From an uncultured Rikenellaceae bacterium (GTDB lineage Bacteria; Bacteroidota; Bacteroidia; Bacteroidales; VadinHA17): DNA of 64,000 nucleotides. The notes beneath the pieces were generated by a model. The model did not search any database and was not told where the DNA came from. It was given only the letters and a program-made list of their open reading frames with translations. This document shows, piece after piece, positions 61,216-63,728 of the stretch; position 1 is the first letter of the stretch; each line of letters opens with the position of its first letter. The position numbers and the translations under genes are program-made. The DNA lies in NCBI GenBank assembly GCA_964429295.1, contig CAYSBL010000001.1, positions 178,528-242,527 on the forward strand, given 5' to 3'.

Positions 61216-62391
61216 TTATTCTGGAATCAGCTTTATTGCTCCCGCTGGACAAATAACGGCACAGGCTCCGCATCCTGTGCACAATTCCGGATGGATATGC
61301 GGCAGAGCCTCACTGCCAGCTTCTCCCGAACCAATGGAAAGTGCGTCATACCTGCACGAAACCTGGCACCTGTTGCATTCACGGTTGTTCGACAACCAGC
61401 ATTTATCAGGCTCAATCTCAGCCTTACCCATGATTATCCTCTTCTTGTCTTCAGGGCTGAAAAGTGATATGCTTCCCGAAGGGCATACCTTGCTGCACAG
61501 GTTGCAATCCTCGAGGCAATAGCCCTTAATGAACCTAACCTCGGGTGTCATGAAAGATATAAGCCGTGAAGCATCAAGATGATGAAAGAGGATATTTGTC
61601 GGGCACGATCTGATGCAATTGCCGCAGCGGATGCAGAGCGTGTTGAATGTATCTTCAGCCAGGGAACCGGGTGGCCGGATGAATGGTCTACCTTCAGGAT
61701 TAATTTGTTTTGGCAGAATTAATCCTGCGGCAAGGCCTGCACCAGCTGAAATAAAATAACGCCTGCCTGCTGAATAACCATGGCTGGATTTCTTTTCATT
61801 ACCGGATAGTGAGTGAACATTACTTCTCAGATCCCAGGCAACATTTTGAAGGCCTCCAAGGGGACATAGTTTTCCGCACCACAAATTTGGAAAGAAATAA
61901 TGAAGTGCAAGCAGAAGAGGAAATCCCGCCAGGGCAAGGATGCCGGCAAGTTCAGCATTCCCATCCAGGGATGTGAAGAATCCGTGAAAAATGGCCAGTG
62001 GATCGATGAGTATAAAAAGAGGCAGGCCCGCTGCAGCAGATGCAATTGAAAGAAGGGCTATCCACCGGCTGATATCCGGAAATTTCTTAAAAAAGGATGC
62101 TTTGAAAGGCGATATCCGGGAAATAGTATCACAGGGGTACCCGACCGGGCATAGATAAACACAGAAAAAACGTTTTTTAAAAAAGGCTGTGACCAGGACT
62201 GCCGCAGCAACAGTGTTAAGGAAAACAAAACTTTTGAGGGTCAGCACAGAATTAAGCATGATAAAAGGACTGAACCACAGATAGAAACCAGTGAATATAC
62301 CCCATGCTAATGGAAGGGCAAGCAACACGGCAAGCAGGGTTGATATTAAACGTATACCTGACGGACCGGTTTTGATCTTTATCCGAGCCAT
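61216..62391 (-). CDS. Membrane polyferredoxin: NapH-like N-terminal half (two CX3CP motifs) fused to a NapG-like 4x[4Fe-4S] C-terminal half
   Basis: The N-terminal half has several TM helices with [10 protein letters not shown] and [10 protein letters not shown]. An internal [15 protein letters not shown] is followed by [27 protein letters not shown]. Further clusters are [24 protein letters not shown] and [12 protein letters not shown]. Confidence 0.7.
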   Translation of the reverse strand: [391 protein letters not shown]

Positions 62392-63728
62392 GCGCCTTGT
62401 TCAGTGAGAAGGGTTTTCAGTTCTTTCGTATTAACATCCCGGGCTCTTATTCCTTTTTTTGAAGCAATGGCAGCTGCCGCACCCGCTCCGTGACCGGTTA
62501 CCAGGCAGGTTCCTATGATCCGGGTATCTTCAACGAGGTCTCTTTCAAAGCAGAAGCAACGGCCCGCAACAATCAGGTTCTCTGTACTACGTGGCAGCAA
62601 GGAGCGGTAAGGTATCTGCCAGTAGGGCCTCTCATCAGGTTTTACGGCCCTGCCTTTGTACATCATTGTTGTCCATGCACCGCTTATGCCTATAGCATCG
62701 GGGAAAGCCTTGAATGTCATTGTGTCTTCAAGTGTCAGCCTGTATTCACCGTCCAGAATACGCGACATCCTTACTCCCATCTGTGAAGCTGTATCGACCA
62801 GAAAAACATCCTCAAATCCCGGCGTGGAACGTATTCTCTGAGTCTTCTCCCATATCTCCTTACGGTAATCCATCTGGAGCTTTGAAAGGTTCAGAACATC
62901 CACTCCATTCTGATCGCGACGACCCTGCATGTTTACCCAGTTAACGCTTTTAATTGGTGTGGGGCTTCCCAGATCAAGGCCCTCGGGAAGCGCTGAAGGA
63001 TCTTTTATCCTGTCGATATTACCGAGCCTGTGAACAAGACCTATATGGTAATTCATCATGTCGTATTTCTCACCTGCAAAATGATAGATATCGCCGTCGC
63101 CGGTACAGTCAACCACTATTTTTGCAAGTATTGCCATCCTGCCTGATTTGCTTTCAATGAATACTCCCCTGATGACATTATCTTCCATTATTGCTCCCGT
63201 TGCCCAGGCATGGTACAGCATTTTGACTCCCGATTCACTTATCATCTCATCCAGCACATATTTGGCTGCTTCGGGGTCAACAACGGGATTCACCTCGGAT
63301 ATTGACATGCCGAGGTCTTTCAGCCTCTGGGACATTTCTCCCCCAATGCCAAATATGACCTGTTTTCTGCGGTTCCGCCTGTCAACTGCATGGGTTGAGA
63401 GAAGCGGCAGGACCAGGCCGCCTGTCCACAGGCCGCCCAGATGGTTGTACCTCTCTACAAGCCATGTTTCGGCTCCCGCCCTGCTTGCAGCGATAGCAGC
63501 TGCGGTTCCTGCAGGGCCTCCGCCGACAACAAGGACATCCGTCTCGGTAAGGACGGGTATCTGCCTTGCAGGTTCCGTTATGGTCCTGCCTGACAGTCCC
63601 GCCAAAGCTGGTTCAGGAACAGGTTTTTTGTCATCTGACTGAATGGGAAGGTCCCGTCTGCAGCCGATACCAAGGCTTATAGTGCCTCCTGCAATCAGAG
63701 CTTTTGTAAGGAAGTCTCTTCTTCTCAT
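62379..63728 (-). CDS. TAT-exported FAD-dependent oxidoreductase (lipoprotein-type signal)
   Basis: [23 protein letters not shown], then the dinucleotide fold [21 protein letters not shown]. 449 aa. Its stop overlaps the start of the polyferredoxin gene by 13 nt. Confidence 0.75.
   Translation of the reverse strand: [449 protein letters not shown]

What the first reader, a model, noticed from the sequence alone, without database searches (positions are those of the whole stretch)
61216..63728. TAT-exported flavoprotein translationally coupled to a single-chain NapH-NapG-like quinone-linked polyferredoxin, with no nitrate reductase
The 449-aa FAD oxidoreductase has a TAT-plus-lipobox signal ([23 protein letters not shown]) and the dinucleotide fold [19 protein letters not shown]. 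It ends in ATGGCTCGGATAA, so it overlaps the start of a 391-aa protein by 13 nt.

The N-terminal half of that second protein has several TM helices and two CX3CP motifs ([20 protein letters not shown]). These are the hallmark of NapH, the membrane quinol dehydrogenase subunit. The C-terminal half begins with a buried twin-arginine relic ([15 protein letters not shown]), followed by [27 protein letters not shown]. This is nearly the same as the mature N-terminus of NapG as I remember it ([28 protein letters not shown]). Three more Cys clusters follow.

NapG and NapH are normally separate proteins feeding NapAB. Here they appear fused, no nap, molybdopterin or cytochrome genes are present, and the partner is a periplasmic flavoenzyme adjacent to GH3 and a DUF5060-type glycosidase. 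This looks like an undescribed electron-transfer module connecting periplasmic flavin-dependent oxidation (or reduction), possibly of a glycan-derived substrate, to the menaquinone pool.
Basis: partly seen in the sequence, partly recalled or inferred. Interest (0 to 1): 0.72.

Follow-up and report, generated by a model that had tools for sequence, protein, structure and literature searches.

The report
Periplasmic flavoenzyme with fused NapH-NapG partner
Two overlapping genes encode an exported FAD enzyme and a membrane iron-sulfur protein (a shortened NapH-NapG fusion) that probably connects it to the quinone pool; the pair is conserved in four bacterial phyla, its substrate is unknown, and the fusion itself was published in 2017.

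Summary
Two minus-strand genes overlap by 13 nt: a 449-aa Tat/lipobox FAD protein (PF12831) and a 391-aa membrane polyferredoxin. The N-terminal half of the polyferredoxin aligns with NapH, including both CX3CP motifs. Its C-terminal half aligns with NapG, including NapG's own twin-arginine motif. All nap profile scores are far below the curated cut-offs.

The fusion is not undescribed. Tooke et al. 2017 (eLife) defined "polytopic polyferredoxins" as NapH-NapG fusions inserted by Sec plus Tat. Méheust et al. 2021 showed that NapH-like modules serve many extracytoplasmic oxidoreductases.

Three things appear to be new:
- This is a short form that lacks NapH's cytoplasmic ferredoxin domain. It forms a coherent family (198 clusters at 50% identity with E<=1e-30).
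- A Tat-exported PF12831 flavoprotein lies immediately upstream in 22 of 24 genomic loci, across Bacteroidota, Acidobacteriota, Planctomycetota and Verrucomicrobiota.
- The neighbours vary. Sulfatases and GH3 recur, but only modestly, and many contexts are housekeeping.

The direction of electron flow, the substrate and the quinone link are inferred, not shown. Both AlphaFold models were poor. Verdict: a new variant of a known kind, of moderate interest.

The parts
62379..63728 (-). Flavoprotein gene (449 aa), PF12831 FAD_oxidored family
   Evidence: ORF. PF12831 scores E 1.1e-84, 285.6 bits against a cut-off of 27. Orthologues of about 448 aa at about 70% identity are abundant in Bacteroidales.
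63660..63728 (-). Tat signal plus lipobox, residues 1-23 ([23 protein letters not shown])
   Evidence: R3, R4, F6 and C23 are invariant in 23 Bacteroidales orthologues. The RR motif is kept in nearly all of the 16 cross-phylum orthologues. The lipobox Cys is kept only in Bacteroidota.
63432..63539 (-). FAD-binding beta-alpha-beta motif, residues 64-99 (GGGPAG ... E92)
   Evidence: Matches the N-terminal Rossmann motif of many FAD families. G69, G70, G71, G74 and E92 are invariant across phyla.
62379..62391 (-). 13-nt overlap between the flavoprotein stop codon and the polyferredoxin start codon (ATGGCTCGGATAA)
   Evidence: Read directly. Overlaps of 1-13 nt recur in L008, L009, L011, L012, L013, L018, L024, L087 and L088.
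61216..62391 (-). Polytopic polyferredoxin gene (391 aa), a short-form NapH-NapG fusion
   Evidence: ORF. Pfam and NCBIfam matches. BLASTP against Citrobacter NapG and NapH.
61837..62391 (-). NapH-like membrane domain, residues 1-185, four predicted TM helices, N-terminus inside
   Evidence: Hydropathy and positive-inside analysis. NapH profiles match residues 41-182.
62146..62163 (-). First CX3CP motif (C77 V Y L C81 P82); the invariant C87 follows
   Evidence: Fer4_5 match. Invariant in 14 homologues. Lies in a loop with 8 K/R, predicted cytoplasmic.
61861..61878 (-). Second CX3CP motif (C172 G K L C176 P177)
   Evidence: Fer4_5 match. Invariant. Aligns with NapH's second motif.
61708..61767 (-). 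Internal twin-arginine motif and weakly hydrophobic fifth TM segment, residues 209-228 ([20 protein letters not shown])
   Evidence: R210 is invariant and R211 is kept in 13 of 14. The motif aligns with NapG's Tat motif. Mean Kyte-Doolittle value is 1.37 against 1.7-2.2 for TM1, 3 and 4, and 2-3 K/R follow. These are the features described for Tat-dependent TMD5 in PMC5449189.
61219..61680 (-). NapG/NapF-like domain with 16 Cys, enough for four [4Fe-4S] clusters, residues 238-391
   Evidence: All 16 Cys are invariant. NapF scores 72 bits and NapG 56 bits. Identity is 33% to both Citrobacter NapG and NapF. The domain also matches the polyferredoxins FwdF and MvhB in the PDB.

Best explanation
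This is a self-contained two-gene electron-transfer module.

The first protein is an FAD enzyme of an uncharacterised PF12831 subfamily. It is folded with its flavin in the cytoplasm and exported by the Tat pathway. In Bacteroidota it is then lipid-anchored on the periplasmic side.

The second protein is its dedicated membrane partner. It has four Sec-inserted NapH-type helices carrying two CX3CP motifs at the cytoplasmic face. An internal twin-arginine motif and a weakly hydrophobic fifth helix follow, which the Tat pathway uses to place a NapG-type domain with four [4Fe-4S] clusters in the periplasm.

Electrons pass between the FAD and the menaquinone pool along this cluster chain and through the NapH-like membrane domain.

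My preferred direction is oxidation of a small glycan-derived compound by the flavoenzyme, with electrons delivered to menaquinone. That would be functionally analogous to the periplasmic FAD sugar dehydrogenases that use a cytochrome c subunit. The opposite direction (quinol to reductase, as in NapGH) is nearly as likely.

Shown: the gene structure, the motifs, the homology and the co-conservation. Inferred: the topology, the physical contact of the two proteins, the quinone link, the direction and the substrate.
For: - Architecture and homology.
- Topology: charged loops follow the positive-inside rule. The RR motif is nearly invariant and aligns with NapG's Tat signal. TM5 is weakly hydrophobic and followed by positive charges. 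Tooke et al. showed experimentally that exactly these features direct Tat-dependent translocation in a related NapH-NapG fusion (PMC5449189).
- Dedicated partnership: a flavoprotein homologue lies immediately upstream on the same strand in 22 of 24 genomic loci with a full-length polyferredoxin. These span Bacteroidota, Acidobacteriota, Planctomycetota and Verrucomicrobiota. Start and stop codons usually overlap. The flavoprotein keeps its RR signal in nearly all of the 16 cross-phylum orthologues compared.
- Self-containment: no third gene is conserved, and the pair sits alone among unrelated genes in several lineages.
- A Tat system is probably in use: a second Tat/lipobox oxidoreductase is encoded in the same window.
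- Glycan link: sulfatases occur in 14 and GH3 in 8 of 74 orthologue loci. The closest relative, L090, has sulfatases on both sides of the pair. DUF5060/apiosidase-like genes flank the pair in L012. A signal-less variant lies next to GH3 and a 436-aa ORF that I take, without a profile search, to be a transporter.
- Precedent for modular use of NapH-like proteins with oxidases and reductases: PMC8238504.
Against: - No experiment bears on this family.
- Both AlphaFold models were poor (pLDDT 54 and 45). Neither the topology nor the interface has structural support.
- Nap profile scores are far below the curated cut-offs, so transferring quinol dehydrogenase activity from NapH is weak. Even NapH's own quinone site is only putative.
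- About 8-10 close flavoprotein orthologues (55% identity or more) have no polyferredoxin next to them. The flavoenzyme is therefore not strictly dependent on an adjacent partner.
- Neighbour enrichment for sulfatase and GH3 is modest. It was not corrected for lineage non-independence or genome background.
- The nearest sequence relatives of the flavoprotein (geranylgeranyl reductase family, AprA-like proteins, Thi4) are mostly reductive enzymes. The NapGH precedent is also quinol oxidation. Both argue against my preferred direction.
Confidence: 0.5

Rival explanations
1. The architecture is the same but the direction is opposite. The fusion acts as a menaquinol dehydrogenase, as NapGH and NosGH do. 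It feeds electrons to the periplasmic flavoenzyme, which reduces an organic acceptor. This could be respiration, detoxification or repair, for example reduction of an activated C=C bond.
For: - NapGH is a quinol dehydrogenase that supplies a periplasmic reductase (PMC5449189 discussion). NapH-like PceC and NosR also serve reductases.
- The best partial matches of the flavoprotein are reductive FAD enzymes: the geranylgeranyl reductase family over residues 64-211 and 62-308, AprA-like PAPS reductase, and fumarate reductase flavoproteins.
- Many carriers are anaerobic Bacteroidales MAGs.
Against: - No candidate acceptor follows from the context.
- Periplasmic orthologues without an adjacent polyferredoxin (L092-L094) would have no obvious electron donor in the periplasm.
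- The neighbours are hydrolytic glycan enzymes, not respiratory genes.
- The fold-search matches rest on a poor model and mostly reflect the shared FAD domain.
Confidence: 0.3
2. The module is not quinone-linked. A cluster bound by the two CX3CP motifs at the cytoplasmic face takes electrons from, or gives them to, a cytoplasmic carrier. The protein would then act as a transmembrane electron conduit to the periplasmic flavoenzyme.
For: - Five invariant Cys (C77, C81, C87, C172, C176) lie in loops predicted to be cytoplasmic.
- Tooke et al. count three cytoplasmic-side clusters in the long form. From the motifs I infer, though the paper does not say so, that one of them is bound by the CX3CP pair.
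- Méheust et al. propose electron transfer across the membrane through the iron-sulfur cluster for NapH-like proteins.
Against: - The short form has lost the cytoplasmic ferredoxin domain that would dock a soluble donor.
- I noticed no conserved haem-ligand pattern on reading the membrane helices in the alignment (read by eye, not tested formally). Nothing else seen there would bridge the bilayer.
- No cytoplasmic partner gene is conserved next to the pair.
Confidence: 0.1
3. The C-terminal four-cluster domain stays in the cytoplasm. On this reading the RR segment is not a Tat-dependent helix, so the polyferredoxin does not touch the exported flavoprotein, and gene adjacency reflects something other than direct electron transfer.
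For: - Segment 213-228 scores below the usual hydropathy threshold for a TM helix.
- NapF, which from my own knowledge is cytoplasmic, gives the best NCBIfam score for this domain.
Against: - The RR motif is nearly invariant in the family. In 98 of 112 full-length representatives an RR-plus-hydrophobic motif lies within 60 residues upstream of the NapG-like start.
- It aligns residue for residue with NapG's Tat signal.
- Low hydrophobicity plus following positive charges is the published signature of Tat-inserted helices.
- The conserved partner is itself Tat-exported.
Confidence: 0.06
4. The flavoenzyme serves sulfatases rather than sugars. For example, it could oxidise the active-site Ser or Cys of exported sulfatases to formylglycine, or oxidatively remove sulfate esters, and pass the electrons to the quinone pool.
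For: - Sulfatase genes are immediately adjacent to the flavoprotein gene, or to the pair, in L013, L018, L088, L090, L092, L093 and L094.
- All seven sulfatases taken from L092-L094 are Ser-type (SxPxR).
- The phyla that carry the pair are known to be sulfatase-rich (my own knowledge).
Against: - Sixty of the 74 orthologue loci hold no sulfatase in the DNA available, though many of those contigs are short. The loci that were fully annotated (L087, L089, L170) show only housekeeping neighbours, and the window copy has none within about 40 kb.
- Ser-type sulfatases are common in Bacteroidales anyway, and they are matured by the cytoplasmic radical-SAM enzyme anSME (my own knowledge).
- There is no biochemical precedent.
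Confidence: 0.04

Closest known systems
Dual Sec/Tat 'polytopic polyferredoxin' (delta proteobacterium MLMS-1 Q1NSB0; Tooke et al. 2017, eLife, PMC5449189)
   Same: Single-chain NapH-NapG fusion. It has five TM segments, with a twin-arginine motif directly before a weakly hydrophobic TMD5 that is followed by positive charges, and four periplasmic [4Fe-4S] motifs.
   Different: The published form has three cytoplasmic-side clusters and TMD5 at residues 338-359. Here the RR motif is at residues 210-211 and the cytoplasmic ferredoxin domain is absent. None of 112 full-length representatives has a CxxCxxCxxxC motif upstream of the NapG-like part. The paper gives no partner enzyme. A long-form example fetched here (L031) sits next to tatC and a flavodoxin-like gene, not a PF12831 protein. 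The phyla named in the passages I read (chloroflexi, nitrospirae, euryarchaeota; Table 5 organisms such as Latescibacteria, Caldithrix, Anaerolinea) do not include Bacteroidota for this family.
NapG/NapH quinol dehydrogenase of periplasmic nitrate reductase (Citrobacter/E. coli type)
   Same: NapH: TM core and both CX3CP motifs, 27% identity over 149 residues. NapG: Tat motif, the RPPG...CxRCGxCxxxCP start and four clusters, 33% identity over 203 residues.
   Different: Two separate genes in the order napG-napH. Here there is one chain in the order NapH-NapG. NapH's two C-terminal [4Fe-4S] motifs are missing. No napA, napB or napC is nearby. Profile scores are well below the cut-offs.
NapH-like systems with a flavinylated FMN-binding domain (NosR, PceC and others; Méheust et al. 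2021, PMC8238504)
   Same: A NapH-type (PF12801) membrane protein used as a modular link between membrane or cytoplasmic electron pools and extracytoplasmic reductases or oxidases.
   Different: In those systems the periplasmic carrier is a covalently flavinylated FMN-binding domain and they need ApbE. Here the carrier is a NapG-type tetra-cluster domain. No FMN_bind or ApbE gene was annotated in the roughly two dozen loci examined.
Periplasmic Tat-exported FAD dehydrogenase complexes that use a cytochrome c subunit (FAD glucose, fructose, gluconate and glucoside 3-dehydrogenases). Comparison from my own knowledge.
   Same: A Tat-exported FAD catalytic subunit on the periplasmic face passes electrons from a sugar to the quinone pool through a dedicated membrane-associated carrier.
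   Different: Those flavoproteins belong to the GMC family, not PF12831, and the carrier is a multihaem cytochrome c rather than a polyferredoxin. No activity is known for the protein studied here.
Flavoprotein plus ferredoxin-subunit enzymes (AprAB/PAPS reductase, SdhAB/FrdAB)
   Same: The FAD domain of the model matches these alpha subunits best, though weakly. In those enzymes [4Fe-4S] ferredoxin-type subunits wire the FAD to a membrane anchor.
   Different: TM-scores are 0.37 or less, obtained with a low-confidence model, and sequence similarity is limited to the FAD-binding region. This is not evidence of shared chemistry.

Membership tests
NapH (TIGR02163 / NF007013) | Score at or above the curated NCBIfam cut-off | tested here: not met
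   38.7 bits against 213.05, and 37.9 against 234. The E-values (about 1e-9) are still significant.
NapH (TIGR02163 / NF007013) | Four TM helices with two CX3CP motifs on the cytoplasmic side | tested here: met
   Motifs at residues 77-82 and 172-177 lie in K/R-rich loops and are invariant in 14 homologues. Topology is by hydropathy and the positive-inside rule only.
NapH (TIGR02163 / NF007013) | Two C-terminal cytoplasmic [4Fe-4S] ferredoxin motifs | tested here: not met
   There is no Cys between C176 and C253. The alignment with Citrobacter NapH stops at its residue 209, before its ferredoxin motifs.
NapH (TIGR02163 / NF007013) | Encoded within a nap (or mau/nos) cluster | tested here: not met
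   No such genes in the contig copies L001/L002 or among the other window ORFs scanned, nor in the related loci.
NapG / MauM (NF007012 / TIGR00397) | Score at or above the curated cut-off | tested here: not met
   55.9 bits against 269, and 54.8 against 178.85.
NapG / MauM (NF007012 / TIGR00397) | Twin-arginine signal followed by four Cys clusters | tested here: met
   GRRYF aligns with NapG's GRRRF and the alignment continues through the cluster motifs; all 16 Cys are invariant in the family. Here the signal is internal, not N-terminal.
NapG / MauM (NF007012 / TIGR00397) | Separate soluble periplasmic subunit | tested here: not met
   It is fused behind a NapH-like domain in one 391-aa ORF, and in all full-length homologues.
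Dual Sec/Tat polytopic polyferredoxin (Tooke et al. 2017) | An even number of TMDs, then an RR motif directly before one last TMD of low hydrophobicity, followed by positive charges | tested here: met
   Four TM segments, then RR at 210-211. TM5 has a Kyte-Doolittle mean of 1.37 against 1.7-2.2 for the others, and 2-3 K/R lie within the next 12 residues in all 14 sequences.
Dual Sec/Tat polytopic polyferredoxin (Tooke et al. 2017) | Seven [4Fe-4S] clusters (three cytoplasmic, four periplasmic) | tested here: not met
   Only the CX3CP pair remains on the cytoplasmic side, and four motifs lie after TM5.
Dual Sec/Tat polytopic polyferredoxin (Tooke et al. 2017) | Tat-dependent translocation of the C-terminal domain | not testable with these tools
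   Needs reporter fusions in tat+ and tat- cells, as in PMC5449189.
PF12831 FAD_oxidored | Score at or above the Pfam gathering threshold, with an FAD-binding GxGxxG...E motif | tested here: met
   285.6 bits against 27. G69-G74 and E92 are invariant across phyla.
Tat-exported lipoprotein | An N-terminal (S/T)RRxFL-type motif, a hydrophobic region and a lipobox Cys | tested here: met
   MRRRDFL...LGIGC; RR, F6 and C23 are invariant in 23 Bacteroidales orthologues. Export and lipidation themselves were not tested.

The most novel reading that the evidence does not exclude
The pair is the core of a so far unrecognised periplasmic redox step in the breakdown of complex, often sulfated, glycans. 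It is shared by Bacteroidota, Planctomycetota, Verrucomicrobiota and Acidobacteriota. A PF12831 flavoenzyme would oxidise (or reduce) a glycan-derived intermediate outside the cytoplasm and couple this directly to the menaquinone pool through a minimal NapH-NapG wire. Glycan processing would then contribute to respiration before sugar uptake. The short form would also show that NapH's cytoplasmic clusters are dispensable for quinone-linked electron transfer.
Probability: 0.2. Interest if true: 0.75.

Novelty: new variant of a known kind. Interest (0 to 1): 0.48.

Why it matters
PF12831 is a large flavoprotein family, very common in polysaccharide-degrading phyla. I could find no characterised member. 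A subfamily with a dedicated, conserved membrane electron wire gives a concrete experimental handle, because the redox partner is known even though the substrate is not.

The short-form fusion is also a natural deletion experiment for the NapGH class. It keeps the CX3CP motifs and the periplasmic clusters but drops NapH's cytoplasmic ferredoxin domain. That could help decide what each part of NapH does.

If the glycan link holds, it would add a respiratory component to periplasmic glycan processing in anaerobic Bacteroidales. If it does not, this remains one more modular use of a known electron-transfer cassette.

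Tried and rejected
- AlphaFold2 on both proteins, using alignments of 23 and 14 homologues, gave poor models (mean pLDDT 54.4 and 45.0).
- Foldseek with the poor flavoprotein model against the PDB returned only generic FAD-domain matches: AprA-like proteins, Thi4, geranylgeranyl reductase and SdhA/FrdA, all with TM-score 0.37 or less. I do not use this to assign function.
- Sequence and profile searches of the PDB found no solved relative beyond the Rossmann motif for the flavoprotein, and nothing for the NapH-like domain.
- Literature searches for PF12831, for FAD-dependent oxidoreductase together with NapH, 4Fe-4S, Tat or glycoside hydrolase, and for sulfatase together with FAD-dependent oxidoreductase found nothing on this pair.
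- A four-Cys cluster in the flavoprotein was considered and rejected. Only C391 and C408 are conserved across phyla.
- A conserved third gene was sought and not found. A PEMT/DUF1295-like membrane protein lies upstream in only 5 of 74 loci.
- A search for tatC in the window was negative. This says nothing about the rest of the genome.
- The sigma-70 promoter and terminator scan was not used, because Bacteroidota promoters differ from the consensus it scans for.

Full report
**Observation**

Positions 62379..62391 read ATGGCTCGGATAA on the coding strand, so the second gene starts 13 nt before the first one ends. Every quoted motif is present.

The 449-aa protein is a clear PF12831 FAD_oxidored member (E 1.1e-84, 285.6 bits against a cut-off of 27). 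The 391-aa protein has two Fer4_5 (NapH-type) matches in its N-terminal half and ferredoxin-type matches over the C-terminal half.

Downstream lie a GH3 gene and, divergently, a DUF5060/Collagen_bind_2 protein. Upstream lies a PEMT/DUF1295-like membrane protein. The rest of the window is mostly housekeeping: gyrB, citrate synthase, aconitase, proline biosynthesis genes and an E1 dehydrogenase. No nap, molybdopterin or cytochrome gene was found among the genes that were scanned.

**What the 391-aa protein is**

NCBIfam NapH models match residues 41-182 (E about 1e-9). NapG/MauM models match 219-390 (E about 1e-15). NapF matches 237-386 (E 4e-20). All are far below the curated cut-offs.

I compared it directly with the nap operon of Citrobacter werkmanii, fetched as L039. 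Residues 209-390 align with NapG residues 10-207 (33% identity, E 4e-19). The internal GRRYF lies opposite NapG's own Tat motif GRRRF. Residues 41-184 align with NapH 67-209 (27% identity, E 2e-8), covering both CX3CP motifs. The alignment ends before NapH's two C-terminal [4Fe-4S] motifs, and the window protein has no Cys between C176 and C253. It is therefore a NapH membrane core without the cytoplasmic ferredoxin domain, fused in front of a complete NapG-like unit.

In 14 homologues the following are invariant: the two CX3CP motifs, a fifth Cys (C87), R210 and all 16 C-terminal Cys.

**Topology**

Topology here rests on sequence only.
- The N-terminus (4 K/R) and the loops 72-109 (8 K/R) and 167-212 (6 K/R) are positive.
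- The loops 34-50 and 130-147 carry no K/R.
- This gives four helices with the N-terminus inside and both CX3CP motifs at the cytoplasmic face.
- Segment 213-228, after the RR motif, is weakly hydrophobic (mean Kyte-Doolittle 1.37 against 1.7-2.2 for TM1, 3 and 4). It is followed by 2-3 K/R in every homologue.

**Prior art**

This is the signature that Tooke et al. (eLife 2017, PMC5449189) established for membrane proteins inserted jointly by Sec and Tat. One of their families is a 'polytopic polyferredoxin', which they describe explicitly as a fusion of NapH with NapG. They showed with reporters that translocation of its TMD5 depends on Tat and on the RR motif. The fusion is therefore not undescribed.

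Their protein, however, has seven clusters (three cytoplasmic) and TMD5 at residues 338-359. A long form of that type turned up here in gut alphaproteobacterial MAGs: L031, 432 aa, with CVACGLCAQKCP and CIKCFKCLGLC before SRRRFL. It sits next to tatC and a flavodoxin-like gene.

Méheust et al. (eLife 2021, PMC8238504) had also shown that NapH-like proteins are used modularly with extracytoplasmic reductases and oxidases. In those systems the periplasmic carrier is a flavinylated FMN domain.

**The short form is a family of its own**

An exhaustive HMMER search of 1.84 billion representatives gave 198 clusters at E<=1e-30. Of the best 150, 112 are full length. None of these has a ferredoxin-type CxxCxxCxxxC motif upstream of the NapG-like start. 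Ninety-eight keep RR plus a hydrophobic residue within 60 residues upstream.

**The pairing**

A scan of one genome per species returned 24 loci with a full-length relative. In 22 of them a homologue of the flavoprotein lies immediately upstream on the same strand. These come from Bacteroidota (Bacteroidales, Rikenellaceae, Cytophagia), Acidobacteriota, Planctomycetota and Verrucomicrobiota. Start and stop codons overlap by 1-13 nt in most. Nearly all of the 16 orthologues compared keep a twin-arginine signal; the lipobox Cys is specific to Bacteroidota.

The reverse test used 80 metagenome loci found with the flavoprotein.
- Thirty-four of 54 testable loci have the polyferredoxin directly downstream.
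- All flavoproteins below about 52% identity lack it and are paralogous PF12831 subfamilies.
- About 8-10 close orthologues also lack it.

So the polyferredoxin almost never occurs without this flavoprotein, whereas the flavoprotein sometimes occurs alone.

**Context**

No third gene is conserved. In Fermentimonas the pair lies between cell-shape genes and methylmalonyl-CoA mutase. In another genome it lies beside queC and queF. In the GWF2_42_66 lineage it lies among sigma-factor and phosphate genes.

Glycan enzymes do recur.
- Among 74 neighbours from 22 loci, sulfatase appears five times. GH3, DUF5060/apiosidase-like and SusD appear twice each.
- In L012 the pair is flanked on both sides by DUF5060/apiosidase-like genes.
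- Among 74 loci with orthologues at 55% identity or more, 14 hold a sulfatase (7 immediately adjacent), 8 hold a GH3 and 5 hold the PEMT-like gene.
- The closest relative (L090, 94% identity) reads PEMT-like, sulfatase, flavoprotein, polyferredoxin, sulfatase, sulfatase.
- Orthologues without a polyferredoxin sit between Ser-type sulfatases (L092-L094). In a form lacking the signal peptide, the gene sits beside GH3 and a 436-aa ORF that I take, without a profile search, to be a transporter (L133/L134).

By my rough estimate this is a few-fold enrichment. It is not corrected for shared ancestry of the loci. I take it as moderate support for a glycan-derived substrate. The particular GH3/DUF5060 adjacency in the window is not a conserved feature.

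**The flavoprotein itself**

No solved structure or characterised relative was found beyond the FAD-binding motif. The longest partial matches are to the geranylgeranyl reductase family, Thi4 and AprA-like proteins. Two Cys (C391, C408) and many Arg, Asp and Glu residues are conserved across phyla, but there is no four-Cys cluster site.

AlphaFold models of both proteins were poor, and the fold search on the flavoprotein model was uninformative.

**Mechanism**

The best-supported picture is a two-component module.
1. A Tat-exported, lipid-anchored FAD enzyme sits in the periplasm.
2. It docks on the periplasmic four-cluster domain of its membrane partner.
3. That domain connects through the NapH-like core to the menaquinone pool.

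The sequence features, the homology and the co-conservation are shown. The contact between the proteins, the quinone link, the direction and the substrate are inferred.

I lean slightly towards a dehydrogenase that feeds menaquinone. Three things point that way: the glycan context, the existence of periplasmic orthologues with no adjacent donor, and the analogy with Tat-exported FAD sugar dehydrogenases that use a cytochrome c subunit. The NapGH-like reductive direction is nearly as likely.

Less likely alternatives are a quinone-independent transmembrane conduit, a cytoplasmic location of the cluster domain, and a role in sulfatase maturation.

**Verdict**

The module is a new variant (short form, with a dedicated PF12831 partner, in glycan-degrading phyla) of a known kind (the NapH-NapG polytopic polyferredoxin and modular NapH-like electron-transfer systems). 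Interest is moderate.

Noticed in passing
window 63756-63814 and 63864-63921: Two direct copies of a roughly 60-nt element (about 76-90% identical) fill the 170-nt intergenic region just upstream of the flavoprotein gene. The first copy contains an 11-nt perfect inverted repeat (63762-63772 / 63806-63816). The core pattern occurs nowhere else in the window (0 expected by chance). It could be a regulatory or REP-like element.
   Followed up: partly
window 24732-26078 (-): A second Tat-plus-lipobox oxidoreductase is encoded in the same window. It is a Gfo/Idh/MocA protein (PF01408, PF19051) that starts MKEQSKLWTRRRFLGSAAIGMAGIAVIPALSTSC. This suggests the organism routinely exports cofactor-loaded redox enzymes by the Tat pathway.
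   Followed up: partly
L008 11360-12256 (-), L013 13473-14441 (-), L018 about 3539-4246 (+): Aldo/keto reductases lie within a few genes of the pair in three loci. Two have twin-arginine N-termini (MKKTNRREFIQKS..., MKKKITRREFVQTT...). It is unclear how a periplasmic NAD(P)-dependent enzyme would recycle its cofactor.
   Followed up: no
L031 2445-5328: A long-form NapH-NapG fusion (432 aa, with the cytoplasmic ferredoxin domain) in a gut alphaproteobacterial MAG is followed directly by tatC (PF00902, E 6e-54) and a Flavodoxin_4 protein. L034 shows a similar ORF layout by length only. The translocase gene appears to be co-located with its unusual substrate.
   Followed up: partly
L092, L093 and L094 (whole loci): Close orthologues of the flavoprotein (71-72% identity, with Tat/lipobox signals intact) lack an adjacent polyferredoxin. 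They sit directly between Ser-type sulfatase genes. In L093 and L094 the same PEMT/DUF1295-like gene that precedes the pair in the window lies upstream.
   Followed up: partly
L133 and L134, 5998-7218: A 406-aa variant of the flavoprotein (61% identity) has no signal peptide and no polyferredoxin. It lies beside a GH3 gene and a 436-aa ORF that may be a membrane transporter (not profile-searched). It may be a cytoplasmic version of the same chemistry.
   Followed up: no
window 13335-15170 (-): The only PF00884 'Sulfatase' match found in the window has the domain at residues 266-527, behind a long N-terminal region. By my own judgement this layout resembles LtaS/phosphoglycerol-transferase-type enzymes rather than a glycan sulfatase. 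The window copy of the pair therefore has no true sulfatase neighbour.
   Followed up: no
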